From a virus: 43,472 nucleotides of DNA. The position numbers and the translations under genes are program-made. The notes under the pieces are model-generated. The model had not been told where the DNA came from. It saw only the letters and a program-made list of their open reading frames with translations, and searched no databases. Where the stretch lies: UHGV virus genome UHGV-0252305; one strand, 5' to 3'. Shown one piece after another: positions 1,908 to 41,567 of this stretch (position 1 is the first letter of the stretch; every line of letters starts with the position of its first letter).

Positions 1908-2408
1908 ATGTTAGAGAAATTCTTAGTATTGCTGGAACGTTTCGTAGTTGCACATGAACTGATTGCCGCGAACAGTGCGAAACAAGTTGTTCAGGTTGCC
2001 GCGCCGCTGGAAGTAGAGACTGTATCGTACACCAAAGAAGCGGTAGCTGAGTGCGCTGAAGAAGCAACAAAAGAAATCCCGGTAGAAGGTGAAGACATCG
2101 TTGACACTAAACCGGCAGAAGAAGAGAAGCCAAAACGCAAGCCGCGTAAAGCTAAAGTAGAGGAAACGACGCCAGAGCCGGAAGAAGAGAAAGAAGAAGT
2201 AGACTATAAGTCTCTGCGCGACCAGATTCAGGCTATCGACGATGCAATTAACGAAGGTCCGAGCGATGCCGCGTGCGATGATTCTGATGAACTGCTGGAA
2301 GAGTTCACAGGTAAGAAAATGAAGATTGCAGCGATTAAAGACGAAGACCTGGCTGAATACCTGGAACGCTTGACAGCAATCAAGAACAAGTATTTCGAAG
2401 AAGAATAA
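1908..2408 (+). CDS. Highly acidic early protein (Glu/Asp-rich), hypothetical
   Basis: 166 aa with long E/D-rich tracts (EEEKEEVDYK, DDSDELLEEF); RBS AGGAGAGA. Confidence 0.6.
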   Translation: MLEKFLVLLERFVVAHELIAANSAKQVVQVAAPLEVETVSYTKEAVAECAEEATKEIPVEGEDIVDTKPAEEEKPKRKPRKAKVEETTPEPEEEKEEVDYKSLRDQIQAIDDAINEGPSDAACDDSDELLEEFTGKKMKIAAIKDEDLAEYLERLTAIKNKYFEEE

Positions 2409-2415
2409 CTATCTC

Positions 2416-2434
2416 GCGGCCTTCGGGCCGCTTT
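2416..2434 (+). terminator. Weak intrinsic terminator or attenuator
   Basis: Stem gcggcc/ggccgc, loop ttcg, followed by only TTT. Confidence 0.4.
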
Positions 2435-2451
2435 AACTGAGGGTCGGAATT

Positions 2452-2724
2452 ATGATTTACCAACTCTACCGAGCCGTCGACAGGCGGGATAACACAGAGG
2501 CGCTATGGCTATTGCGTGCTCCGTCCGGTGCGCACCAGATGGAAGAGATGGCGTACTTAGGAAAAGTACCACGGCCTAAAGATACAGGCCGTCACGTGTC
2601 ACAGATTAAGCGCACAACTTTCGCCAAGCCTGACTTTTATGTCTTCGAGTCGATGTATGGGTGGGCCATGCACTGCGACCATAAGACACGACATTTAATT
2701 GACCAGTGGGAGAACAGGGTATGA
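2452..2724 (+). CDS. Hypothetical protein
   Basis: 90-aa ORF, stop overlaps next start (ATGA). Confidence 0.5.
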   Translation: MIYQLYRAVDRRDNTEALWLLRAPSGAHQMEEMAYLGKVPRPKDTGRHVSQIKRTTFAKPDFYVFESMYGWAMHCDHKTRHLIDQWENRV

Positions 2725-3962
2725 TTCTAAAAGAACGCGGTGGCAATAATGATGTGCACGCCTTATTGTCGCCGTCAGGTGCTAAGAAGTGGCTGACGTG
2801 CAGTGCATCACTGGCCTGTGAAAAAGATATTCCTAACACGTCAGGTAAAGCTGCCGTTACGGGGACCGCCATGCACACCATAGCTGAGGTCCATCTCAAC
2901 ACCTATATACGCGGCACTGCGTTGCCGTTGGAGCGTGAAGTCGGCGCTTACGTACTGGATGAAGGCAAAGGTCAGATTAAGGCGCTAATCAGCCCGATGA
3001 AAGGCGCGGTACTGATTACGGCGGACATGATTGAGCAGGTGCGCAAGTACACCGACTACTGCAAAGCGATTATAGACGTAGCGACTTACGCCAAGCTGGA
3101 AATGCGTGTCAATCTTACTGAGGTATTGCATCCGGGGTATGAAGGCGTTGAGACGTTCGGAACCGCTGACCTCGTTGCTGTCCAGGAACTGGCAAACACC
3201 GACGAGCACATGCTCATTATCGGCGACCTGAAAACCGGGCGGCATCGCGTCGAAGCGAAAGAAAACAAGCAGCTTATGCTTTACGCTCTCGGTGTTTATC
3301 GTCGACTCAAGAGACGTTATAACATAACAACCGTTCGTCTGGTCATCTTCCAGCCTTACGCTGGGGGCGCGACAGAGTGGGACATCTCGGTTGAAGGACT
3401 GGAACTGTTCGCTAAGTTCGCACAGAAACGCGCGCTGTTAGCGCTTGATGCGTATTTCCGTGGCAAGAAGAACCTGAAAGCGTCGGACTTCAAGCCATCG
3501 GTAGATGGTTGTCAGTGGTGCCGGTTCTCTGAACAATGCGCTGCGCGTACAAAGACGGTTAATTCTGTACTGGCGGAAGAACTGGAAGACGACTTTGTGC
3601 TGGAACTGACGCCGGAGCAACTCGTAGCTGAGTATGAGAAGTTGCCGCTGTTGCGCCAGCACATCGACAAGGTTGAGAAAGCTATGGCGGCCGCGTTGCA
3701 TTCAGGTAAGAAAGTTCCTGGTTACAAGTTGGTTGAAGGCCGCCCGGGTAATCGTGCATGGAAAGACGCGGAGAAAGTAACAGAACTCTACGGCGACAAG
3801 CTGACTAAAGAAGTGCTCATGTCACCTACCGAAGCTGTTAAAGTCATACCGGAAGAAGAACTGAAAGACTTCATTACCCGTAAGCCAGGCGCACCATGTG
3901 TCGCAACGGCAGACGACAAACGTCCTGAGTGGAATCAGGTAACAGAGGAGGATTTGGAATGA
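2721..3962 (+). CDS. Cas4-like / RecB-family PD-(D/E)XK nuclease with Fe-S cysteine cluster
   Basis: D...IGDLKTG...QLMLYAL nuclease motifs; N-terminal Cys (LTCSA) plus C-terminal CQWCRFSEQC (C-x2-C-x5-C); ATG at 2721 has SD GGGAG, track GTG start at 2706 does not. Confidence 0.75.
   Translation: MILKERGGNNDVHALLSPSGAKKWLTCSASLACEKDIPNTSGKAAVTGTAMHTIAEVHLNTYIRGTALPLEREVGAYVLDEGKGQIKALISPMKGAVLITADMIEQVRKYTDYCKAIIDVATYAKLEMRVNLTEVLHPGYEGVETFGTADLVAVQELANTDEHMLIIGDLKTGRHRVEAKENKQLMLYALGVYRRLKRRYNITTVRLVIFQPYAGGATEWDISVEGLELFAKFAQKRALLALDAYFRGKKNLKASDFKPSVDGCQWCRFSEQCAARTKTVNSVLAEELEDDFVLELTPEQLVAEYEKLPLLRQHIDKVEKAMAAALHSGKKVPGYKLVEGRPGNRAWKDAEKVTELYGDKLTKEVLMSPTEAVKVIPEEELKDFITRKPGAPCVATADDKRPEWNQVTEEDLE
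3945..3962 (+). repeat. Second copy of the 18-nt gene-junction repeat
   Basis: Identical to 975..992. Confidence 0.8.
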
Positions 3963-20282: not shown

Positions 20283-20311
20283 TTGCACACCCCAATATAA
20301 TAGTGTACTAT
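20283..20311 (+). promoter_or_regulatory. Promoter-like site TTGCAC-17-TACTAT with AATAG-N4-CTATT
   Basis: Inverted repeat at 20299..20311; upstream of Imm-like gene and enzyme cassette. Confidence 0.5.
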
Positions 20312-20352
20312 TCACTTACACCAACGATGTTATCCCAAACAGGAGCTACACC

Positions 20353-20544
20353 ATGACGGGTATTACTATGTTCTTCTTAATCATTATCGTTTTAGTTTAT
20401 TTTATTCCATTTCTCGTGGCGCATATGCGCGACCATAAAGCGAAATTAGCGATATTCATGGCTAATCTGTTTCTTGGATGGGTTCTGCTGCCGTGGGTAT
20501 TTATTTTAATCTGGGCTTGCAACTCGAATGTCAAAGAGAAGTGA
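20353..20544 (+). CDS. Superinfection-immunity-type small membrane protein (Imm-like, 2 TM)
   Basis: YFIPFLVAHMRDHKAKLAIFMANLFLGWVLLPWVFILIWA matches my recollection of the Imm_superinfect family; ATG at 20353 with SD AGGAG. Confidence 0.55.
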   Translation: MTGITMFFLIIIVLVYFIPFLVAHMRDHKAKLAIFMANLFLGWVLLPWVFILIWACNSNVKEK

Positions 20545-27026: not shown

Positions 27027-28100
27027 TTAAGCACCGACACCAGTTACCAGGAAGGCAATCGGTACGTGCTTGCGGTCAACCACACGGCTCCAGTTGGAGG
27101 CGTTCGCCAGGTCCCGCCAGGAAGCAGAGCGCGGGGTAGTCTCGGTGCCGTTGCCAGTGATTACTGCACCGGTGAAGCTGTAACCAAACGGATGTAGCAA
27201 CCAGGTCTTACGGGTCCACAGGGTTTCAACGCCGCCGCCGTTGCCGCGGGACGCTTCGCGCTCGTATTCCAGCGGGTTGGACGGAGAACCTTCACCGTAA
27301 CCGATAGCGCCGTTGCCGAAGATGATGGAGATGAACTTACGGGTCTGGGTCTGGGTCTGGGTCTGGGTCAGGCCAGTGCTGACTACGGTCATGCTGTCGT
27401 CAACAATCACGCGGTAGCCCTGGTAGGTGGCGAACATGGTGTTGTTGTCCGCGTCACGGATGAAGTCGATAAGCTGCTGCTTACGTGCCTGCGCATAAAC
27501 GAAGCTATGCATCGCGATAGCCCCCAGCACTTCACCGCCGTTGCCCATCAGAGCATCGCCCATAGTCTGGGTAGCGTCGATGAACGCGCCCGCATCGAAG
27601 CCCCGAGTAGCAGACACGTCGATTACCATGTCATTCTGCTCGTGGTATTTGTCGGTATCGGCTACGTTGTCATTGTACAGCCCGAGCGCGGTAGCAATCA
27701 GACGGCGTTGTGCCTGGCGCTGCCAGAAGTTATCCAGACGGGACGCTACGGATTGCAGCGGGTTCTGGCTGGTCAGTTCGACAGTCAAATCCGCCTGACC
27801 GAAACCTTCGTTCAGGTATGCAACGCGGGCCATCATCTCACCGGTCTGCACGTTACGCGGGGTGGCGATGTCCTGATATACATCGTTCGAGTAGTTAGGC
27901 TCGATAGAGGTATCAATCGCTTTCCAGAACGGAATATTAGCGACGTTGGACGGGCCGCGGGCAATCTCGGCAGCGTACGGGGTCGGGGTCAGAATACCAG
28001 ACTGGAAGAACGCGGTTTTTTCTACCGGGTCCTCGGTCATATAAGACGCCAGGACCGGGATGTTGCCAGTTACGATATCGCCGATAGTGGTAATTGCCAT
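27027..28100 (-). CDS. Major capsid protein
   Basis: 357 aa directly after scaffold gene; contains internal (TQ)4 repeat. Confidence 0.7.
   Translation of the reverse strand: MAITTIGDIVTGNIPVLASYMTEDPVEKTAFFQSGILTPTPYAAEIARGPSNVANIPFWKAIDTSIEPNYSNDVYQDIATPRNVQTGEMMARVAYLNEGFGQADLTVELTSQNPLQSVASRLDNFWQRQAQRRLIATALGLYNDNVADTDKYHEQNDMVIDVSATRGFDAGAFIDATQTMGDALMGNGGEVLGAIAMHSFVYAQARKQQLIDFIRDADNNTMFATYQGYRVIVDDSMTVVSTGLTQTQTQTQTRKFISIIFGNGAIGYGEGSPSNPLEYEREASRGNGGGVETLWTRKTWLLHPFGYSFTGAVITGNGTETTPRSASWRDLANASNWSRVVDRKHVPIAFLVTGVGA
27341..27369 (-). repeat. In-frame hexanucleotide microsatellite (GGGTCT)4 encoding (TQ)4 in capsid gene
   Basis: Four perfect tandem 6-mers plus partial fifth; protein reads LTQTQTQTQTRK. 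Confidence 0.8.
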
Positions 28101-28102
28101 TA

Positions 28103-28804
28103 TTATTTCCTCAGGGCTTTAAGTTGCCGTTCAAATTCGGCAGGGTTCGATTTATACAGGGCTAAACGCTCTGCTTCACTCATGTCTTTAAACGCTGGTG
28201 CGGCCCCGCCGCCTTTGCTACCGGAAGCCCCGCCGCCGGAAGCTGCATTTGCTTTGATCAAATGCGAAAACGCCTTGTGTTCGCGCAGGTATTTGCGGAA
28301 CTGTTCCGGGTCAGTCGTGATTACGTTACCGTCTGCACCAACAAACTTAGTAACCACATCATCGCCTTCGAACTCAGTCTTAACGAACGGCGCAAGAATG
28401 TCCACTGCTTCTGGGGTAATAAAGTCACCCGCGAAAGAGCCTAGCACCGCTTTACGTTCGCTGCCGAGGATACGCTCTGCCATTCTGGAGATGCGACCGT
28501 CTTTCTCGGCTAACACCGGGTCATACTGGCTACGAATCGTCTTTTCGAACTCATCCATCTTACCAGCGGCTTTTAACGCCTCCTGGTGCGCGCGCTGCCG
28601 TTCTTCTTCGGCCTCTTTTGCTTTGCGAGCGGCTTCTTTCTTCTCCGCCAACAATGCTTCCTGATTAGCCTTAAGCCCGGCAACTTCTTTCTCAATCAGC
28701 GCCTGAACTTCTTCAGCGGTGAACATTTTCGGCGCGTCACCGCCACCAGCTTTATCTTCTGCCCCAGCTTCTTCCTGGAACGGATAACGTAAAAAACGAT
28801 TCAT
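28103..28804 (-). CDS. Scaffolding protein
   Basis: Charged coiled-coil (EEVQALIEKEVAGLKANQEALLAEKKEAARKAKEAEEERQRAHQ) immediately upstream of capsid gene; ATG at 28804 with SD AGGGGA. Confidence 0.6.
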   Translation of the reverse strand: MNRFLRYPFQEEAGAEDKAGGGDAPKMFTAEEVQALIEKEVAGLKANQEALLAEKKEAARKAKEAEEERQRAHQEALKAAGKMDEFEKTIRSQYDPVLAEKDGRISRMAERILGSERKAVLGSFAGDFITPEAVDILAPFVKTEFEGDDVVTKFVGADGNVITTDPEQFRKYLREHKAFSHLIKANAASGGGASGSKGGGAAPAFKDMSEAERLALYKSNPAEFERQLKALRK

Positions 28805-28886
28805 AGTCAGTATGTCCCCTGGACGTTGGAACCCGGGCCACCCGGATTTACATGTCAAGAATAAATTATTCCAACATGCAAGGCAA

Positions 28887-29150
28887 CTATTCCAGAATAT
28901 TCCTCACGTAATCCTGCAACATGAACACTTTCAGCCGCAGCTGCCGTACGCATTCAGCGTTCTGAACGTCGATAGCTAAATCCTCGTCAGCGTCGCTACT
29001 TGGAGCTGCCAGTTTGCACGGAGGCTGCATCATCGTCGTATCCGGTAATGGAATTAGCGTTTGCGACGGCGTGGGACTTGAGCAGGACGCGAGCATCGTC
29101 GAAAGTGCACACGCTGCGACCTGGCGTTTTAATGTATTTAACGACTTCAC
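28887..29150 (-). CDS. Candidate o-spanin (Rz1-like lipoprotein) embedded out of frame in the Rz candidate
   Basis: Lipobox LASC after a signal-like N-terminus; Pro-rich mature region; starts inside 28996..29382 and extends beyond it. Confidence 0.4.
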   Translation of the reverse strand: MKSLNTLKRQVAACALSTMLASCSSPTPSQTLIPLPDTTMMQPPCKLAAPSSDADEDLAIDVQNAECVRQLRLKVFMLQDYVRNILE

Positions 29151-29382
29151 GGGTAATCACCTCTGATTTCGTCTTGCCTTCGTTGTCGGCGGCGGCGGCC
29201 TTTGATTCGTCCTGCTGCTGCCGTTGTGTTTTCTTCGCTAACTCAGCCTGCGCTTTCTGCTGTTGCTGCGAAACGAGATTCGCCCGGCCTTCGCTCCAGC
29301 CGCTGCGATACTGGTAAATGCCGTGGGCGTAAGCCAGGATGATGAAACATGCTCCTGCTACGACAGTTGCTTTAAGATTCAT
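28996..29382 (-). CDS. Candidate i-spanin (Rz-like)
   Basis: N-terminal TM segment followed by Gln/Ala/Lys-rich coiled-coil (QQQKAQAELAKKTQRQQQDESKAAAADNEGK). Confidence 0.45.
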   Translation of the reverse strand: MNLKATVVAGACFIILAYAHGIYQYRSGWSEGRANLVSQQQQKAQAELAKKTQRQQQDESKAAAADNEGKTKSEVITREVVKYIKTPGRSVCTFDDARVLLKSHAVANANSITGYDDDAASVQTGSSK

Positions 29383-29492
29383 GTTTCCCCTTTCTCGATA
29401 AGTAAAGCCCCGCCATAAAGCGGGGCGCTAGTCCTTATCATTTAAACATAGAAACGGCGTAATCTCAGTAAACCAGTTACTTTTTACACAAG

Positions 29493-29647
29493 CAATAGAG
29501 TATGGCCCTTCCGAACGCGTCAGCGTAACTACACTCAGGACTTACGTCCCGCTCCGTTACCTGCCCGCGCCGCGGTCGCTTGTTCATACTTCACAAGCTC
29601 AGGTGGAGCTTAGCACATTTTTGGTGAAAAGTCAACTATTCGAATAG
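29493..29647 (+). repeat. ~150-bp intergenic direct repeat, copy 1
   Basis: Aligns by eye with 41415..41567 at roughly 75% identity; includes 16-bp palindrome AACTATTCGAATAGTT at 29634..29649. Confidence 0.7.
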
Positions 29648-29701
29648 TTTATTCCAACATTTACAATTGAGTGGAATAACCGGAATACATAAACAAATAG
29701 T

Positions 29702-29730
29702 TTGCGCACCCCAATATAATAGGGTGCTAT
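29702..29730 (+). promoter_or_regulatory. Promoter-like site TTGCGC-17-TGCTAT with AATAG-N4-CTATT
   Basis: Inverted repeat at 29718..29731; upstream of lipoprotein cassette. Confidence 0.45.
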
Positions 29731-29757
29731 TCATTCTATCGAACCGGGGAGGCCGTC

Positions 29758-29853
29758 ATGTTAGTCGTTATTTCAGTAGTAATTGCAGTTGATGCGGTGA
29801 TGTTTCTTTGGGCTTGTAGTGGTATTGGTGACACGGGTAATGGTGAACTATGA
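29758..29853 (+). CDS. Small hydrophobic peptide (31 aa) preceding lipoprotein gene
   Basis: SD GGGAGG; ATGA overlap with lipoprotein start; translation verified. Confidence 0.3.
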   Translation: MLVVISVVIAVDAVMFLWACSGIGDTGNGEL

Positions 29854-30194
29854 AATATATTAAATTAGCAGTAGCAGGTGTTGTAGCCGTTTGTTTGAGT
29901 GGTTGCGTAAGGTCGTTGCCAGACCCGGCTTTACAGGTTTATCAGGCAGGGGATACAACGGCAACATGTAATCAGTTACTATCGAGAATCGCCACGACAA
30001 AACAAGCTCAAGCCAACGCTACGCACCGTGTTAATAAGCAAATAGGTACTAACGTTGTACTCGGTGTTACAGGCGCATTCCTGATTGTTCCGCTGTTCTT
30101 TATGGACACGGGCGCCGGGCCTTCTATGGACGAGATGACAGCCGGTAATCGTCTGTCGCAGTTACAACAAACATACGACGAGAAATGCAAATGA
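29850..30194 (+). CDS. Lipoprotein (signal peptide plus lipobox LSGC)
   Basis: MKYIKLAVAGVVAVCLSGC...; own promoter-like site and terminator; opposite strand to flanking structural genes. Confidence 0.6.
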   Translation: MKYIKLAVAGVVAVCLSGCVRSLPDPALQVYQAGDTTATCNQLLSRIATTKQAQANATHRVNKQIGTNVVLGVTGAFLIVPLFFMDTGAGPSMDEMTAGNRLSQLQQTYDEKCK

Positions 30195-30266
30195 CAAATA
30201 GTGTGATGTTTTATTTTGTTTTGTGGGTATCGGCTGCGGCTATCACCGCGATGTTCATATAAAAAT

Positions 30267-30289
30267 AAAGCCCCATAGCGGGGCTTTTT
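30267..30289. terminator. Bidirectional terminator after lipoprotein gene
   Basis: 8-bp stem aaagcccc/ggggcttt with T-runs on both strands. Confidence 0.7.
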
Positions 30290-30290
30290 A

Positions 30291-30752
30291 TCATTCCGGC
30301 TTAGTAACCTTCGCCGCTTTACTGACGGCCTCTACCCCATCGGCATCAGTAACTTTAACGAAGTATTCGCCGACCGCATTAACCGTCAGAGACAGAGCCT
30401 CCTCAGGCGCATTCACCACTTCCTTACCGTCTTTGTACCAGGTCAGAGAATACGGCGCTTTGCCTGCCCTAACCTCGACAGTGATGGTTGCGCTGCCGCC
30501 CGCCAGTTCAGCGTCCTGCGGTTGCGCAGAGAAATACACGTCGCCAGCGTCCGCCAGATACGGAATTTCATAAAGCATACCGGCGGCGGGCAACGCAATA
30601 CCGGTTTTATCTGCAAACGGCATATCATCTACCGGTGTACCGAGTACACTTTCGTCCCCAATAAATACCACGTTCTCGCCAGAGCCAGACACGCGGGCGT
30701 ACTGGACTACGCGACGAGACGGTACGTCAGTTACTTTGAAAAAGCCCATCAT
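30291..30752 (-). CDS. Hypothetical protein in head module
   Basis: 153 aa downstream of head morphogenesis gene. Confidence 0.45.
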   Translation of the reverse strand: MMGFFKVTDVPSRRVVQYARVSGSGENVVFIGDESVLGTPVDDMPFADKTGIALPAAGMLYEIPYLADAGDVYFSAQPQDAELAGGSATITVEVRAGKAPYSLTWYKDGKEVVNAPEEALSLTVNAVGEYFVKVTDADGVEAVSKAAKVTKPE

Positions 30753-31795
30753 TATTCCCCTTTCAGATAATCAGCAACACGTTTATCGAGTTCCGCCATC
30801 TGCTTAAGCGTGAGCGGATTCCCGAAACCATCTACAGATATTACGCGAAACTCTTCCGGCGATATACCGCTGTTACGGAAAATCTTACCTCGCACCGGGC
30901 CGAGCGCCTGGTCCTGAAACCACGCCGGTTGTTGTTTAAGGAACTCGTAGTAAGTGGTGTCTGCGCTTACCTGAGTGCCACCTTCCGCGCCTTTAGCCGC
31001 GCGTTTTGCGCCTTTATCGAGGAAGTCGAACTCGGAACTGATTACCGGAGCCGTGCACGACCGGCAGTTCGGATGGGCTGGGGGCATCGGCCCCTTACCA
31101 ATTTCCCACGTCATCCCGTCTCTGACCCTGCAAATCGTACTGGTGCGGCTGTCAAGCGTTGACACCCACTCGTACTTCTCGATGATGTCGTCGTTCTGGC
31201 GGTACGTCTCGTTACGGGCCTCGTTGGATACGTGGGACAGCGCGGTGCGGATTACCGTAGTCGCGTTACGTTCTGAGATGTCGGCTAGTCCACCAGCGCC
31301 AACAACATTCTTAACAATCTGCCGTGTGGTTTGACCTTGCACAAAGCCCATCTTAACTCCAGTTACAAGACGTGCTACTTCCGTTTCACCCCATCCAGAC
31401 ATCAGCTTGGTGAAATCAACGGGCTTGTCGCTCAATGATAATGGTTGAAACTCGGCAGCGGCCCATACCTGCTCAGCGGTAGGCGTAACAAATTCCGCGT
31501 CTACGTTGGCGGTCAGTGTCTTTACGTTCCACTCAGCCTCATACGCCGCCAGTTCCTTAAGGTCTTCTGTCAGCTTTGTCTGCCAGTCGCCCGTAAGCCC
31601 CACCAGTGCTTCTTCAAGGTCGCGTAACAATTTATTCAGTCGGGCAGTGCTTCGCCCGTCGTCACCGAATAACAGCACCTGCCGTTTTATTTCGTCCCGC
31701 ATCTCCTGAATGAACGGTGCTAGGTCTTTCACTTCACCAGATGCGGTGCGTTGCAGCCAAATCTGGTGGCTGATTAGTGATGTCAGTAAGCTCAT
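30752..31795 (-). CDS. Head morphogenesis protein (Mu gpF-like minor head protein)
   Basis: WVSTLDSRTSTICRVRDGM matches the conserved Mu-F/SPP1 gp7-type motif; follows portal gene. Confidence 0.7.
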   Translation of the reverse strand: MSLLTSLISHQIWLQRTASGEVKDLAPFIQEMRDEIKRQVLLFGDDGRSTARLNKLLRDLEEALVGLTGDWQTKLTEDLKELAAYEAEWNVKTLTANVDAEFVTPTAEQVWAAAEFQPLSLSDKPVDFTKLMSGWGETEVARLVTGVKMGFVQGQTTRQIVKNVVGAGGLADISERNATTVIRTALSHVSNEARNETYRQNDDIIEKYEWVSTLDSRTSTICRVRDGMTWEIGKGPMPPAHPNCRSCTAPVISSEFDFLDKGAKRAAKGAEGGTQVSADTTYYEFLKQQPAWFQDQALGPVRGKIFRNSGISPEEFRVISVDGFGNPLTLKQMAELDKRVADYLKGE

Positions 31796-31937: not shown

Positions 31938-32591
31938 ATGAAACTGCAAACATTAGAGTTCCCTTATGGAGAAATCACTTTTGACCGTGAAAACTTTATT
32001 AACGTAAACGAGCTGGTTGACCAGATGAACCGTTGGCGTTTAGACAACGGCATGGGGGCCAGAGAGCTTCGCCAGGTCATGGCAACGGATGGCTTCAAGA
32101 TTTTCAAGGAGGAATGCGAAAAACAACTCGGAATCGAGAATGCCATAAGGGCGACGAAAGGCCGAAACGGTCGCACCTTTGCATGTCTCCATCTGGCAGT
32201 ATATATTGCTGAGCAATACAGCGCCTATTTCCATTTCCTCGTTATCGACCGCTTTATCACACAACGGCAGGTAGAACTACGAAACATTGGCGCGGTGAGC
32301 TTTGTCGAGCTTAACGCTGCCGTTAGTCGAATGATCGAGCGCACGGAGGGAAGAATTGGCCACAGTGGACACTTCATACAGGTGGCTAAAGCGGTAAAGG
32401 AATCCGTAGATATCCGCGACGTAACGGGTTTCGATACATGGGACTCTCAGGATGCGAAGACCAATCAGTTGCGAAGTGACATCCAGAAAGCTCTGGTGAC
32501 GCTTCTTGACATGGAGGCCGTTAATACATGGGGTGAACTGAAAGAGGCGATACCTCGGGTTGTGCGTAAATGTGCGGCTAATATACGTTAA
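31938..32591 (+). CDS. KilA-N domain protein
   Basis: KGRNGRTFACLHLAVYIAEQYSAYFHFLVIDRF fits KilA-N signature; own promoter with palindromic operator; bidirectional terminator downstream. Confidence 0.6.
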   Translation: MKLQTLEFPYGEITFDRENFINVNELVDQMNRWRLDNGMGARELRQVMATDGFKIFKEECEKQLGIENAIRATKGRNGRTFACLHLAVYIAEQYSAYFHFLVIDRFITQRQVELRNIGAVSFVELNAAVSRMIERTEGRIGHSGHFIQVAKAVKESVDIRDVTGFDTWDSQDAKTNQLRSDIQKALVTLLDMEAVNTWGELKEAIPRVVRKCAANIR

Positions 32592-32620: not shown

Positions 32621-34090
32621 TTACTCCTGTTGTTGCGCGGACTGCGGAATCTCTCCCGCTACCTGAGCAACAGAACCCAACGGCAGCGGTGCGTCTTCAA
32701 TAGCGTTCTGAATGTCCTCATCTGTCCAGTCAGTCACACCTGCCTTGCGCAACGCAGCATAGTAAGCGGTGGCGGGTAGCAGGCCAGCGTTAATATCCGC
32801 CATCCACTGAGCGCGGTCCTGAGCTGTCATAGGTTGCAGGAAGAATTCCATATTCAGCTTGAACTCAATCTCAGTATCTTCACTAAGCCCAAGCATACCC
32901 GCAACCCAGCGCAACGCATCGGTATACGCCATGCTTACATTACGTGCTATTGTTGCCATGACTGACGTGTCGGCGCCGCGTTGCAGGCGGGCCGATTCCG
33001 CGGTGATTTGCTGCGTCGGGGTGATAAGCTGCGCGCCAATCTGGATGGCCTGATTCTCTTTATCCAGCATATTCTGTTTGGCGAGGTTAGTTTCCGCCGC
33101 CTGAACCAGAAACGCATTTCCGCCGGAGCCGATGTTGTGGCCTGAACGCGACCCCATGCGTATGCCGTGTGGGTTGGCTTCTTTCCACTGCTCCATGCTC
33201 ATGTTCTCGCCGGGGGCAATGAACAGTGTCGGTTGACCTACTATAAAGCTGGCCTCTTCCACATCGGCCGAATTTCTGAAGTGTCCTATATTTAGCTCAG
33301 CTAACGGCAGTAAAGGCGCATCGTCTATAGTGGCGTCGTTGTTGCTTGCGCCAATGAACGTGAACGGGATTTTACCGCGCAACTGTTCGCCGAGTTCCGG
33401 GAAGATTTCGATTACTTCATCCTGTGCGCCACCTTCGGCATCGAAGCGGTAGATGCGCTGGCGGTAGCGACCGTCAATCAGGTCAAGGACGCGGTATTGC
33501 TCGCCGAATTTTGTTTCAAACTCAGCGCCTGGTTCCGAGTATTCCCACGCCTCACGCAATACAACCATCGTCACGCGGTTCACTGAACCGATGCGGGTGA
33601 GTCTCCAGTTGATAATGTTCTCCGCGGTATAGAATGCGATTACCGGGTTTAATAATCCCGCGTTCTGCTCTGCCGCCGTTGCTGCGGCTGTTTCCGGGGC
33701 ATCCACCAGCAACCCACCGCGTCCTATCGAGTCAATCTCCATTAACGTATCCTGCGCGTGCTGCCACAGCCCTACACCCGAACCGTCAGCGTTGTGCAAC
33801 AGGTACTCAAGTTCAGGCGGGATAATCTGCTCAGGGTCTTTGCGCATCACTGACCCCGTCATCCCCGCCAGGGTACGTTTAGTGAAGTTGTAACAGATAG
33901 CACCGTTCTCGTATTCTTCCTGGCGCTGGGCTGCGTAGGTCGGGTCAGGTTCGTTCTTCCCGACGTTGCGCAGATAGCGAATAAGGTCGCCTTCCAGCGC
34001 GTGGCGTACCTTCTGCCATTTATCGAAGTGATGCAGCCATTCCCGGTGTTTTGTCTTAACACCCTGATTCTGACCGTTCATAGTTAACAT
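32621..34090 (-). CDS. Portal protein
   Basis: 489 aa immediately downstream of large terminase, upstream of Mu-F-like gene. Confidence 0.7.
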   Translation of the reverse strand: MLTMNGQNQGVKTKHREWLHHFDKWQKVRHALEGDLIRYLRNVGKNEPDPTYAAQRQEEYENGAICYNFTKRTLAGMTGSVMRKDPEQIIPPELEYLLHNADGSGVGLWQHAQDTLMEIDSIGRGGLLVDAPETAAATAAEQNAGLLNPVIAFYTAENIINWRLTRIGSVNRVTMVVLREAWEYSEPGAEFETKFGEQYRVLDLIDGRYRQRIYRFDAEGGAQDEVIEIFPELGEQLRGKIPFTFIGASNNDATIDDAPLLPLAELNIGHFRNSADVEEASFIVGQPTLFIAPGENMSMEQWKEANPHGIRMGSRSGHNIGSGGNAFLVQAAETNLAKQNMLDKENQAIQIGAQLITPTQQITAESARLQRGADTSVMATIARNVSMAYTDALRWVAGMLGLSEDTEIEFKLNMEFFLQPMTAQDRAQWMADINAGLLPATAYYAALRKAGVTDWTDEDIQNAIEDAPLPLGSVAQVAGEIPQSAQQQE

Positions 34091-37875: not shown

Positions 37876-38361
37876 TCAACCTTTCACCGCGCGCCCAATG
37901 GCCTCAGCCTCTTGCCACGGTTTACCGTCAAATAATGCCAGTCTCCCGGCTGTACGGCGACGCAGGCCAAGTAACGGTTTGCCGTTCTGGTTGATGAACA
38001 GCGCCAGCTTAGCCCGCAGCGTTGCAATATCACCAGAACGCAGTGCCTTACCCGTGCCGGTAGTAGCAGCAATCACACCAGCACCTGCGTTGTATACCAG
38101 GTCGCACACTGCATCGAACTGTGCCTGTGTCAGTGAATGGTGTGCCGTCGCGTCAACCGCAGCTACGGCTTTAGCCATATCGCGATTAAGTAACAGGAGG
38201 CCTTGTCCTGGAGTGATGGTCTGCCCCGCCTTAACATGCGGGCCATAGCTTCCATACCCAATAGTCAGGTACTTCTCATTCGGTGTAGCGCGATACGCGG
38301 TTCCGCGGAATCCCTCGAACGCGGCGGTGAATTTGATGCCATTGTTGCTAATGTTTCTCAT
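37876..38361 (-). CDS. Endolysin, GH24 lysozyme (P22 gp19 / T4 lysozyme-like)
   Basis: ISNNGIKF...FEGFRGTAY...TIGYG and QAQFDAVCDLVYNAG...ALF patterns match P22 gp19-type lysozyme as recalled; follows holin genes. Confidence 0.85.
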   Translation of the reverse strand: MRNISNNGIKFTAAFEGFRGTAYRATPNEKYLTIGYGSYGPHVKAGQTITPGQGLLLLNRDMAKAVAAVDATAHHSLTQAQFDAVCDLVYNAGAGVIAATTGTGKALRSGDIATLRAKLALFINQNGKPLLGLRRRTAGRLALFDGKPWQEAEAIGRAVKG

Positions 38362-40112: not shown

Positions 40113-40144
40113 TTCGTTTTCCTCTGTCTCGTCTGTGTAAACGA

Positions 40145-40173
40145 ATAGTAGCCTATTCTATCTTAGTGCGCAA
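40145..40173 (-). promoter_or_regulatory. Promoter-like site TTGCGC-17-TACTAT with AATAG-N4-CTATT
   Basis: Inverted repeat at 40144..40157; upstream of 39927..40112 and the lysis genes. Confidence 0.5.
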
Positions 40174-41099: not shown

Positions 41100-41220
41100 C
41101 CGGCTTCTCTCTCTCTTAGTTAATTTAGGTTCTGCTTACCGGGCTTATCGACTCTTCGTATGCTCGTCGCCGATACTGACCTTATTAAAGGTTGGCCCCC
41201 TGCCTCGCCCAGATAAGTGA

Positions 41221-41249
41221 ATAGTAACCTATTATGTTGGGGTGTGCAA
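41221..41249 (-). promoter_or_regulatory. Promoter-like site TTGCAC-17-TACTAT with AATAG-N4-CTATT
   Basis: Inverted repeat at 41220..41233; ~120-nt leader to secreted-protein gene 40794..41099. Confidence 0.5.
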
Positions 41250-41414
41250 GAGAATAGTTACGTTGCCGTTGTGATTCTTTCGTTTCTTAAAAGAGTACGC
41301 AACGCAGTGGGTGGGCGTTAGCCCACCCCAGCGGAGTGAAGTACTCTCTACCTTGCTCACGGCAACTATAGAAACTTTTAATTATCAGTGACTTGGATAT
41401 TTAGGCGGGATTAA

Positions 41415-41567
41415 CAATAGACTTTGACCCTTCCGAAAGCGTCAGCGGAACTACACTCAAGTGCCTAATGGCACGCGTTGCGTTCCCTGCCGCTCCGCGG
41501 TCGCTTGCGATATCTCACAAGCTCAGTGAAGCTTAGCATATTTTCAAGTAAAAGTCAATACCAGTAG
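41415..41567 (+). repeat. ~150-bp intergenic direct repeat, copy 2
   Basis: Shares blocks ccttccgaa.gcgtcagcg.aactacactca, ccgcggtcgcttg, tcacaagctcag, agcttagca, aaaagtcaa with copy 1. Confidence 0.7.

What the first reader, a model, noticed from the sequence alone, without database searches (positions are those of the whole stretch)
29702..30289. Lipoprotein cassette on the opposite strand inside the head module: candidate superinfection-exclusion function
A promoter-like site, a 31-aa hydrophobic peptide and a 114-aa lipoprotein (lipobox LSGC) are inserted between - strand head genes and closed by a bidirectional terminator. Phage lipoproteins in such positions commonly block the phage's own receptor. 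The coupled short hydrophobic peptide is an additional unannotated element.
Basis: partly seen in the sequence, partly recalled or inferred. Interest (0 to 1): 0.5.

Follow-up and report, generated by a model that had tools for sequence, protein, structure and literature searches.

The report
Lipoprotein moron in a Kagunavirus head module
A virulent E. coli phage carries a small, swappable three-gene cassette in its head-gene region whose main product is a membrane-anchored lipoprotein from a large, unstudied bacterial family; related phages keep this gene where exclusion genes normally sit, so it probably blocks rival phages, but nobody has tested this.

Summary
At 29702-30292 a + strand cassette sits between the - strand spanin genes (Rz/Rz1) and the Hoc-like decoration gene of a Kagunavirus-like phage. 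It comprises a promoter motif repeated four times in the genome, a 31-aa hydrophobic ORF, a 114-aa lipoprotein (lipobox LSGC, Cys19) and a bidirectional terminator.

Corrections:
- The 31-aa ORF is lineage-specific. It is absent from the one divergent copy of the cassette and is already annotated in some relatives.
- A second hydrophobic ORF (23/25 aa, 30185/30191-30262) was missed. It is the one conserved with the lipoprotein.
- All three ORFs are joined by ATGA stop/start overlaps.

The cassette is a classic moron. It has low GC, occurs in only 11 phage records, and the same slot is empty or holds other cargo in relatives.

The lipoprotein belongs to a large uncharacterised family (about 1,460 clusters at 50% identity; no Pfam, NCBIfam or PADLOC model). 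The family has two conserved cysteines and a near-invariant hydrophobic tip.

Phage-borne homologues occupy the sieA slot of P22-like prophages, sites next to tail-fibre genes, and early regions. Chromosomal homologues lie among housekeeping genes.

Superinfection exclusion is therefore plausible (about 0.4) but unproven. Masking of the phage's own receptor is not supported.

The parts
29702..29733 (+). Promoter motif: -35 TTGCGC (29702-29707), 17-nt spacer, -10 TGCTAT (29725-29730), overlapping the inverted repeat AATAG-N4-CTATT (29718-29731). The transcription start is inferred near 29737.
   Evidence: There are four copies of TTGCRC-N17-TRCTATTC in the window (sequences). It is annotated as a PHIRE phage promoter in fBC-Eco01, with published consensus tgAATAGTa-ccTATTat-T (PMC9825357). 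The -10 carries G in place of A at position 2 only in this phage. Function as a promoter is inferred, not shown.
29758..29853 (+). ORF1: a 31-aa hydrophobic peptide, MLVVISVVIAVDAVMFLWACSGIGDTGNGEL. GGAGG lies at 29748-29752, and its stop overlaps the lipoprotein start (ATGA).
   Evidence: It is 33 aa in six relatives, differing by an in-frame 6-nt indel, with about 4 synonymous and 4 non-synonymous differences. It is absent from the divergent cassette L007. It has no family match.
29850..30194 (+). 114-aa lipoprotein precursor. The signal peptide is residues 1-18 and the lipobox is LSGC with Cys19 (29904-29906). Family-invariant residues are D35, C40, N68, G72, G75, P81, F84, D86, R101, L105 and C113. 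The hydrophobic tip is residues 67-86 (30048-30107).
   Evidence: phrog_13472 at E=1.2e-44. Homologues. Invariant columns. Lipobox statistics. AF2 model (mean pLDDT 68): helices 40-73 and 93-112, with a low-confidence tip.
30185..30262 (+). ORF3: a 25-aa hydrophobic peptide, MQMTNSVMFYFVLWVSAAAITAMFI. It is 23 aa if started at the ATG 30191, which overlaps the lipoprotein stop (ATGA). It is unannotated in every record examined.
   Evidence: It is conserved in length and hydrophobicity in L007 despite 22 of 78 nt differences. Eight changed codons are synonymous and six are not. In a random-mutation simulation P(at least 8 synonymous)=0.0008. Against: three non-synonymous and no synonymous changes among close relatives, including W14R.
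30267..30292 (.). Bidirectional intrinsic terminator AAAGCCCC-ATAGC-GGGGCTTT, with a T-run on both strands. It closes the cassette and follows the stop of the - strand Hoc-like gene.
   Evidence: called on both strands. (-13.0 and -13.5 kcal/mol). Annotated on both strands in fBC-Eco01.

Best explanation
This is a horizontally exchanged moron. It is one short transcription unit (promoter motif, ORF1, lipoprotein, ORF3, terminator) inserted in a variable slot between the spanin genes and the Hoc-like gene of a virulent Kagunavirus-like siphophage.

Inferred steps:
- It is transcribed from the same promoter/operator class as the phage's DNA-metabolism genes and its Imm-like gene, so probably early.
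- The three ORFs are translated as a coupled unit through ATGA overlaps.
[quoted passage not shown] The hydrophobic segment could instead hold it in the inner membrane.
- Its periplasmic part is an antiparallel two-helix hairpin, probably clamped by a C40-C113 disulfide. The near-invariant hydrophobic tip (N-x2-LGVTGAFLIVPLFFMD) dips into a membrane or a conserved envelope partner.

Most likely role (inferred from the genomic positions of phage-borne homologues): it alters the envelope of the infected cell so that later-arriving phages fail at a step after adsorption, namely outer-membrane penetration or DNA delivery. It would not act by masking a receptor. The two tiny hydrophobic peptides are accessory membrane partners. 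Only the downstream one is conserved with this lipoprotein lineage.
For: Cassette anatomy and autonomy.

Moron hallmarks:
- GC is 45% (lipoprotein GC3 43%) against 54% in the flanking genes (GC3 55-70% in the Hoc-like and capsid genes).
- It is present in only 11 phage records.
- The slot is empty in K1ind2 and ER13, holds a 67-aa protein in Bas70 and a 179-aa protein in SE479.
- The window's Hoc-like gene is 98.5% identical to Bas70, which has different cargo, but only 87-94% identical to cassette-bearing phages.

Lipoprotein features: all 107 aligned homologues keep the lipobox Cys, and the +2 residue is A, G, V or I, never D.

Fold: two confident helices flank a low-confidence hydrophobic tip. 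C40 and C113 are invariant.

Positions of homologues:
- sieA slot of P22-like prophages, seven loci. The slot is defined in PMC10883804.
- Next to tailspike or tail-fibre genes.
- Early regions of lytic Aeromonas podophages.
- Directly after TraH/TraG in an integrative conjugative element, and inside defence islands.
- Next to the integrase of a small island.

The same promoter motif drives an Imm_superinfect gene (51.5 bits, cut-off 27.9).

Glycan receptors for the genus: PMC11990801.
Against: - No functional data exist for any family member. A literature search for the motif and the PHROG number returned nothing.
- The immediate neighbours of homologues in about 70 diverse bacterial genomes are unrelated housekeeping genes. 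In Rickettsiella-like genomes the gene lies in a syntenic core context of pilin genes, pepA and lptF/lptG. The ancestral role is therefore probably a cellular envelope function, not exclusion.
- There is no hit in PADLOC or in any annotated exclusion PHROG.
- The -10 of the promoter is weakened in this particular phage.
- Early timing, membrane localisation, the disulfide and the hairpin-insertion model are all inferred.
- The structure model is only moderate (pLDDT 68), and the tip is below 50.
Confidence: 0.4

Rival explanations
1. Receptor masking. The lipoprotein binds the periplasmic face of the phage's own outer-membrane protein receptor and inactivates it, as T5 Llp does with FhuA. This would prevent superinfection and loss of progeny on cell debris.
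For: It is a small early-type lipoprotein in a virulent siphophage with no Asp at +2, so outer-membrane sorting is predicted. Two homologues lie near tail-fibre or host-specificity genes (L120 and L121). The Llp mechanism is described in PMC9586334 and in bioRxiv 10.64898/2026.03.26.714494 (abstracts).
Against: The gene is not next to the receptor-binding genes in this phage. The genus is reported as glycan-dependent, with no known protein receptor (PMC11990801). Homologues sit in P22-like podophages, whose receptor is O-antigen (my own knowledge). The hydrophobic core is near-invariant across phyla, which does not fit recognition of a variable receptor. There is no sequence relation to annotated exclusion families.
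Confidence: 0.12
2. Envelope stabiliser or lysis-timing accessory. The lipoprotein and its micro-peptides modulate envelope integrity during infection, for example by protecting against lysis from without or by tuning spanin- or holin-dependent lysis.
For: It lies directly beside Rz/Rz1. It has membrane-active features: a lipid anchor, a hydrophobic tip and two single-helix peptides. Chromosomal homologues lie in housekeeping contexts, which suggests a general envelope role.
Against: The adjacency reflects the slot, not the cargo. Relatives with an empty slot or unrelated cargo keep the same spanin genes. The cassette is on the opposite strand and has its own promoter of the class that drives DNA-metabolism genes. 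Homologues in other phages are not next to lysis genes.
Confidence: 0.15
3. Passenger gene. A bacterial envelope lipoprotein gene was picked up by recombination into a hotspot and is maintained with little or no benefit to the phage.
For: The distribution is patchy, and the slot accepts unrelated cargo, including a 179-aa protein that I judge HNH-like by eye. The -10 is weakened in this phage. Most family members are chromosomal.
Against: The lipoprotein is under purifying selection between the window and L007: 40 changed codons are synonymous and 22 are not, and all family-invariant residues are kept. The coupled ORF3 is also conserved. Independent acquisitions by several phage types at functionally suggestive positions argue for selection.
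Confidence: 0.12
4. Another envelope-level function, such as blocking conjugative DNA entry or counteracting a host surface or membrane defence, rather than phage exclusion.
For: One homologue follows TraH/TraG in an integrative conjugative element. By my own knowledge of F-like systems, that is where entry-exclusion genes lie. Others lie inside restriction-modification and helicase defence islands.
Against: Only a few such contexts were seen. There is no Pfam match to TraT or other exclusion proteins. A virulent phage gains little from blocking conjugation.
Confidence: 0.1
5. Unimolecular spanin-like protein: an outer-membrane lipid anchor plus an inner-membrane helix that together span the periplasm.
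For: It has a lipobox plus a single hydrophobic segment of about 19 residues (GRAVY 1.97), and it lies next to lysis genes.
Against: The phage already has an Rz/Rz1 pair. The hydrophobic segment is internal, and the charge distribution around it contradicts a periplasm-to-cytoplasm helix (sequence). The invariant C40 and C113 on either side of it imply that both helices are periplasmic. Only about 47 residues would be available to span the periplasm. The family is widespread in bacterial chromosomes.
Confidence: 0.03

Closest known systems
Morons of tailed phages (the concept from lambdoid and HK97 genomics; my own knowledge)
   Same: It is a short autonomous unit with its own promoter and terminator, inserted between genes of a conserved module. 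It has lower GC than its surroundings and is present in some close relatives but absent from others.
   Different: The host here is a virulent phage, not a prophage. The promoter is one of the phage's own repeated promoter/operator motifs rather than a constitutive lysogen-expressed one. The unit is tricistronic, with two micro-ORFs.
T5 Llp and Cor-type receptor-blocking lipoproteins
   Same: It is a small lipoprotein encoded by a lytic siphophage. Outer-membrane inner-leaflet localisation is predicted, and an exclusion role is suspected. Llp is described in the abstracts listed.
   Different: No sequence relationship was detected. The gene is not adjacent to receptor-binding genes. The genus uses glycan receptors. 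The protein is a helical hairpin with a conserved hydrophobic tip and two conserved cysteines, and it has a very broad bacterial distribution.
P22 SieA (PMC10883804)
   Same: Homologues of the lipoprotein occupy the same genomic position, between gene 16 and mnt/arc/ant/gene 9, in P22-like prophages. The proposed action is at DNA delivery rather than adsorption.
   Different: SieA is described as an inner-membrane protein with predicted transmembrane helices and three types of its own. The protein here is a lipoprotein with one hydrophobic segment and is unrelated in sequence.
T4 Imm-type superinfection immunity proteins (Pfam PF14373)
   Same: This phage carries such a gene (20353-20541) behind the same promoter motif.
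   Different: The lipoprotein itself has no similarity to PF14373.
Ltp of Streptococcus phage TP-J34 (PMC3952083, abstract)
   Same: It is a phage lipoprotein implicated in superinfection exclusion, the kind of role proposed here.
   Different: Ltp is from a Gram-positive host and is described as surface-exposed. No homology is claimed, and none was tested directly.

Membership tests
Bacterial lipoprotein precursor (signal peptidase II substrate) | Positively charged n-region, hydrophobic h-region, lipobox [LVI][ASTVI][GAS]C, with the Cys within about residues 15-35. | tested here: met
   MKYIKLAVAGVVAVCLSG|C has K2 and K5, residues 1-18 have GRAVY 1.56, the lipobox is LSGC and the Cys is at 19. 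All 107 aligned homologues have the Cys, and 94 pass a simple rule.
Bacterial lipoprotein precursor (signal peptidase II substrate) | Call by a dedicated predictor (SignalP or LipoP), and experimental acylation or globomycin sensitivity. | not testable with these tools
   No such predictor or experiment was available.
Moron | Own promoter and own terminator flanking the cargo. | tested here: met
   A repeated promoter motif lies at 29702. The terminator is called on both strands. Promoter activity itself has not been shown.
Moron | Presence/absence polymorphism among close relatives, and atypical composition. | tested here: met
   Eleven records hold the cassette. Others have an empty slot or different cargo. 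GC is 45% against 54%. The distribution is mosaic relative to the flanks.
phrog_13472 / uncharacterised lipoprotein family (no Pfam model) | Family-invariant residues C19, D35, C40, N68, L71, G72, G75, P81, F84, D86, R101, L105 and C113. | tested here: met
   All are present in the window protein. The PHROG match has E=1.2e-44 over the full length.
T5 Llp / Cor receptor-blocking lipoproteins | Sequence membership in the family. | tested here: not met
   No Pfam, PHROG or NCBIfam match other than phrog_13472 'unknown function'. No direct pairwise comparison with Llp or Cor sequences was made.
T5 Llp / Cor receptor-blocking lipoproteins | Gene adjacent to the receptor-binding protein gene, with a known outer-membrane protein receptor. 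| tested here: not met
   The gene lies between the spanin and Hoc-like genes. The genus is reported as glycan-dependent (PMC11990801).
T5 Llp / Cor receptor-blocking lipoproteins | Binding to and inactivation of the receptor. | not testable with these tools
   This needs an experiment.
P22 SieA | SieA-type inner-membrane protein (types A-C, similar transmembrane-helix predictions). | tested here: not met
   The protein has a lipobox and one hydrophobic segment. The SieA description comes from PMC10883804. No direct alignment with SieA was made.
P22 SieA | Position between P22 gene 16 and gene 9 homologues in P22-like prophages. | tested here: met
   This holds for homologues P0004 and P0007 and for loci L111, L112 and L114, not for the window gene itself.
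Imm_superinfect (PF14373) | Match to the Pfam model above its cut-off. | tested here: not met
   The lipoprotein gives no hit. A different gene in the window (20353-20541) scores 51.5 bits against a cut-off of 27.9.
Known anti-phage defence systems (PADLOC-DB v2) | Match to any PADLOC model. | tested here: not met
   None of the three ORFs gives a hit at E up to 1.
Unimolecular spanin | N-terminal lipobox plus a C-terminal transmembrane domain, serving as the phage's only spanin. | tested here: not met
   The hydrophobic segment is internal (residues 67-85 of 114). An Rz/Rz1 pair is present.

The most novel reading that the evidence does not exclude
The family defined by this lipoprotein comprises about 1,460 clusters at 50% identity and has no Pfam, NCBIfam or PADLOC model. 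It may be a widespread, previously unrecognised class of envelope-acting DNA-entry exclusion proteins. Virulent phages, P22-like prophages (as an alternative occupant of the sieA slot), conjugative elements and defence islands would all have recruited it from a cellular lipoprotein. It would work through a disulfide-clamped helical hairpin whose invariant hydrophobic tip inserts into a membrane or a conserved envelope machine.
Probability: 0.25. Interest if true: 0.7.

Novelty: new member of a known kind. Interest (0 to 1): 0.45.

Why it matters
- If the lipoprotein excludes other phages, it adds a new and very widespread protein family to the short list of envelope-level exclusion mechanisms.
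- It would also identify what replaces sieA in the many P22-like prophages that lack it. Only 22 of 66 carry sieA (PMC10883804).
- There is a practical consequence. Kagunaviruses such as Golestan and fBC-Eco01 have been isolated against multidrug-resistant or pathogenic E. coli with therapy in mind (abstracts). A cocktail member carrying an exclusion gene could interfere with its partners.
- The case also exposes annotation problems. One deposited genome has five wrong-strand CDS calls across the cassette, and a conserved micro-ORF is unannotated everywhere.

Tried and rejected
- Rfam search of 29300-30400 at E up to 1: only two chance-level hits.
- Pfam, NCBIfam and PADLOC scans of all three ORFs: nothing meaningful.
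- Scanning all 107 family members against Pfam: no consistent weak relation; the best was DUF2207_C in 9 of 107, below its cut-off.
- Ten longer homologues scanned for fused domains: none. A SHOCT tail occurs in a few members.
- PDB sequence-profile search: nothing.
- Two AlphaFold runs. With the shallow alignment the mean pLDDT was 59.7. With the deep alignment it was 68.2, and the hydrophobic tip stayed below 50.
- Foldseek against PDB and against viral models: only generic helical hairpins at E above 1, with the AcrA hairpin on top; not significant.
- Search for recurrent gene neighbours in 80 species genomes: one syntenic block in Rickettsiella-like genomes (pilins, pepA, lptF/lptG) and otherwise unrelated housekeeping genes. 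There is thus no operon partner and no family-wide enrichment on mobile elements.
- Pattern scans of metagenome and viral contigs for further divergent cassettes: only identical copies.
- blastn of the Citrobacter prophage homologue against complete E. coli genomes: no match.
- Plasmid search: mostly Rhizobium megaplasmids, plus one 44-kb E. coli 'plasmid' record whose size suggests a phage genome.
- The HSE2 label 'putative structural protein' rests on annotation only. The paper text contains neither 'mass spectrometry' nor 'SDS-PAGE'.
- Literature searches for the sequence motif and the PHROG number found nothing. A further search on Guernseyvirinae superinfection was uninformative.
- The unimolecular-spanin reading was rejected, as set out under the rival explanations.

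Full report
CONTEXT

The window is a Kagunavirus-like (Guernseyvirinae) E. coli siphophage. The 2.2 kb around the finding is 93-95% identical to phages K-02, phiEc4, SZH-1, Golestan, HSE2 and fBC-Eco01.

Gene order on the - strand is:
- major head protein (27027-28100)
- scaffold (28103-28858)
- Rz1 embedded in Rz (28887-29382)
- the finding
- Hoc-like decoration protein (30291-30752)
- head morphogenesis protein (30752-31795)

OBSERVATION

All the reported elements exist.

The + strand unit starts with a 31-nt motif, TTGCGC-N17-TGCTAT. It overlaps the inverted repeat AATAG-N4-CTATT. The motif recurs at 20283 (+), 40173 (-) and 41249 (-), each ahead of a run of same-strand ORFs.

The generic sigma-70 scan missed it. 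The reason is that this phage has G at position 2 of the -10, whereas six relatives have TACTAT. In fBC-Eco01 the motif is annotated as a PHIRE 'phage promoter' with the same consensus.

Three ORFs follow:
- ORF1, 31 aa, 29758-29853, with a GGAGG Shine-Dalgarno sequence.
- The 114-aa lipoprotein, 29850-30194.
- ORF3, 25 aa from 30185 or 23 aa from 30191, ending at 30262.

Both junctions are ATGA stop/start overlaps, the usual signature of translational coupling. A hairpin at 30267-30287 is predicted as a terminator on both strands.

WHICH SMALL ORFS ARE REAL

One divergent copy of the cassette exists, on a Logan contig (L007). Its lipoprotein is 82% identical to the window's.

- ORF1 is absent there. 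The lipoprotein instead starts at a GTG behind a purine-rich leader.
- ORF3 is retained. It has the same length, the same ATGA overlap and a hydrophobic sequence despite 22 of 78 nt differences. Eight changed codons are synonymous and six are not. Random mutation gives at least 8 synonymous codons with P=0.0008.

Among close relatives, ORF1 shows an in-frame 6-nt indel and roughly equal numbers of synonymous and non-synonymous changes. ORF3 shows three non-synonymous changes, including W14R.

I therefore regard ORF3 as a conserved coding partner of this lipoprotein lineage. ORF1 is probably translated but is a dispensable, lineage-specific addition. ORF1 is annotated in Golestan, phiEc4 and fBC-Eco01. 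ORF3 is annotated nowhere. K-02 carries five wrong-strand CDS calls across the cassette.

A MORON IN A VARIABLE SLOT

Only 11 phage records hold the cassette. The same slot has other states:
- empty in K1ind2 and Salmonella phage ER13
- a 67-aa acidic protein in Bas70
- a 179-aa protein in Salmonella phage SE479, HNH-like by eye but with no Pfam hit
- something else again in RP180

The cassette has 45% GC, against 54% in its neighbours.

The window's Hoc-like gene is 98.5% identical to that of Bas70, which has different cargo. It is only 87-94% identical to those of cassette-bearing phages. The cargo is therefore exchanged by recombination.

THE LIPOPROTEIN FAMILY

The protein matches phrog_13472 ('unknown function') at E=1e-44. 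It matches nothing in Pfam, NCBIfam or PADLOC.

A profile search finds 1,464 clusters at 50% identity with E up to 0.001. They come from Proteobacteria (including Rickettsiella, Legionellales and Mycoavidus), Deferribacteres, Nitrospinota, Omnitrophota and Planctomycetes.

Family-wide features:
- All 107 aligned members keep the lipobox Cys.
- The +2 residue is A, G, V or I, never Asp.
- Invariant residues include C40 and C113 and the hydrophobic core L71, G72, G75, P81, F84 and D86.

AlphaFold with the deep alignment gives two confident helices (40-73 and 93-112). They are separated by the hydrophobic segment, which stays at low confidence. No significant structural neighbour was found.

Two points argue against a membrane-spanning helix. 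The charge pattern around the hydrophobic segment does not fit one. The two invariant cysteines lie at the outer ends of the two helices. I therefore infer a periplasmic, disulfide-clamped helical hairpin whose hydrophobic tip dips into a membrane or a conserved partner. This is inference.

GENOMIC CONTEXTS OF HOMOLOGUES

In phages and other mobile elements:
- Seven loci lie in the sieA position of P22-like prophages, between gp16 and mnt/arc/ant/tailspike. PMC10883804 defines that slot and notes that only 22 of 66 P22-like phages have sieA.
- Two lie between a large virion protein and a tailspike.
- Two lie near tail-fibre or host-specificity genes.
- Several lie in early regions of T7-like Aeromonas phages and of other viral contigs.
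- One lies directly after TraH/TraG in an integrative conjugative element.
- One lies between a large helicase and a type I restriction-modification system.
- One lies beside the integrase of a small island.
- One lies on a small Rep3 plasmid contig.

These are the places where exclusion or defence genes are typically found.

In a one-genome-per-species sample of 80 chromosomal loci the picture is different:
- The immediate neighbours are unrelated housekeeping genes.
- About ten Rickettsiella-like genomes share a core context of minor pilins, pepA and lptF/lptG.

The family is therefore primarily a solitary cellular envelope lipoprotein that mobile elements have recruited repeatedly.

INTERPRETATION

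The best-supported reading is an early-type moron whose lipoprotein modifies the infected cell's envelope to exclude later phages. I give the exclusion role a probability of about 0.4.

- The genus depends on surface glycans via tailspikes (PMC11990801).
- The gene is not beside the receptor-binding genes.
- Homologues serve podophages with glycan receptors.
- The best-conserved part of the protein is a generic hydrophobic element.

A post-adsorption block on penetration or DNA delivery, functionally analogous to SieA, fits better. It remains untested.

This phage also carries an Imm_superinfect gene (20353-20541) behind the same promoter motif. That shows exclusion genes are part of this promoter class's regulon.

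Rivals are an envelope-stabilising or lysis-timing role, a neutral passenger gene, and another envelope function such as conjugation exclusion. A unimolecular spanin is unlikely.

NOVELTY

SIE-type lipoprotein morons in virulent siphophages are a known kind of feature (T5 Llp, Cor). The new elements are:
- the protein family, which is large, uncharacterised and absent from the domain libraries
- its occupation of the sieA slot
- the tricistronic, ATGA-coupled layout with micro-ORFs

I score interest at 0.45.

Noticed in passing
window 29430-29690 (- strand), with a paralogue at window 41300-41560: A non-coding element is 96.5-98.5% identical across E. coli Kagunaviruses and Salmonella Jerseyviruses, even where the flanking Rz and Hoc-like genes drop to 79-86%. 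It is kept in phages with an empty slot. A 78%-identical paralogue lies at 41415-41558. Both copies carry TTGACT-N17-TAAGCT on the - strand, and the first ends at the - strand terminator 29426-29407. An internal hairpin changes sequence but keeps its pairing between the copies, and a long stem shows two compensatory pairs. The fold z-score is -2.0. The 36-aa ORF annotated here in some records loses its ATG in the paralogue and is frame-shifted and then restored in fBC-Eco01 and HSE2. This is probably a structured small RNA of about 190 nt. It has no Rfam match.
   Followed up: partly
window 20283-20313 (+), 29702-29732 (+), 40143-40173 (-), 41219-41249 (-): Four copies of a promoter/operator motif, TTGCRC-N17-TRCTATTC, contain the inverted repeat AATAG-N4-CTATT over the -10. 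This suggests co-regulation by a dimeric DNA-binding protein. In this phage the cassette copy has G in place of the A found in six relatives at -10 position 2. The fBC-Eco01 paper attributes the motif to a 'phage-encoded RNA polymerase'. No such gene was looked for here.
   Followed up: partly
window 20353-20541 (+): A 63-aa two-helix membrane protein matches Pfam Imm_superinfect (PF14373, 51.5 bits against a cut-off of 27.9) and phrog_1039 'immunity to superinfection'. It lies directly behind a copy of the promoter motif and ahead of exonuclease, polynucleotide kinase and dNMP kinase genes.
   Followed up: partly
window 31938-32591 (+): A second opposite-strand insertion in the head module lies between the head-morphogenesis and portal genes. 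It is a 217-aa protein with a sub-threshold KilA-N match (Pfam E=4.6e-4) and a match to phrog_6095 'amidase' (E=9e-121). K-02 has a different 94-aa ORF at this position, and Bas70 has none. This is therefore another variable slot.
   Followed up: no
L028 1557-2096 (Salmonella phage SE479) and L002 2459-2662 (Bas70): Alternative cargo in the same slot. SE479 has a 179-aa protein with an HNH-like motif by eye (no Pfam hit). Bas70 has a 67-aa acidic protein. A homing-endonuclease-type occupant could help explain the unusual homogeneity of the adjacent non-coding element.
   Followed up: partly
L001 (phage K-02, PQ436005.1) locus 2337-3017: The deposited annotation places five small hypothetical CDSs on the wrong (-) strand across the cassette and misses the lipoprotein gene. 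HSE2 labels the lipoprotein 'putative structural protein', and the paper text contains neither 'mass spectrometry' nor 'SDS-PAGE'.
   Followed up: yes
window 28887-29382 (-) and 37876-38361 (-): The lysis genes are split. The Rz/Rz1 spanin pair sits inside the head module, between the scaffold and Hoc-like genes, about 8.5 kb from the endolysin gene. - strand terminator-like hairpins (30287-30267 and 29426-29407) lie between the Hoc-like gene and Rz. How the downstream late genes are transcribed is unclear.
   Followed up: no
L043, L052, L061, L069, L070, L073, L075-L077, L089: In Rickettsiella-like genomes the family member has a fixed chromosomal position between a minor-pilin operon (N_methyl, PilW, PilX) and pepA-lptF-lptG. 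This is a possible lead to the cellular function of the family.
   Followed up: partly
plasmid record CP088689.1 (44,086 bp, E. coli), 33432-33725: A record filed as a plasmid encodes a protein 42% identical to P0007, the same identity the window's lipoprotein shows to P0007. Its size matches a Kagunavirus genome, so it is probably a phage genome deposited as a plasmid.
   Followed up: no
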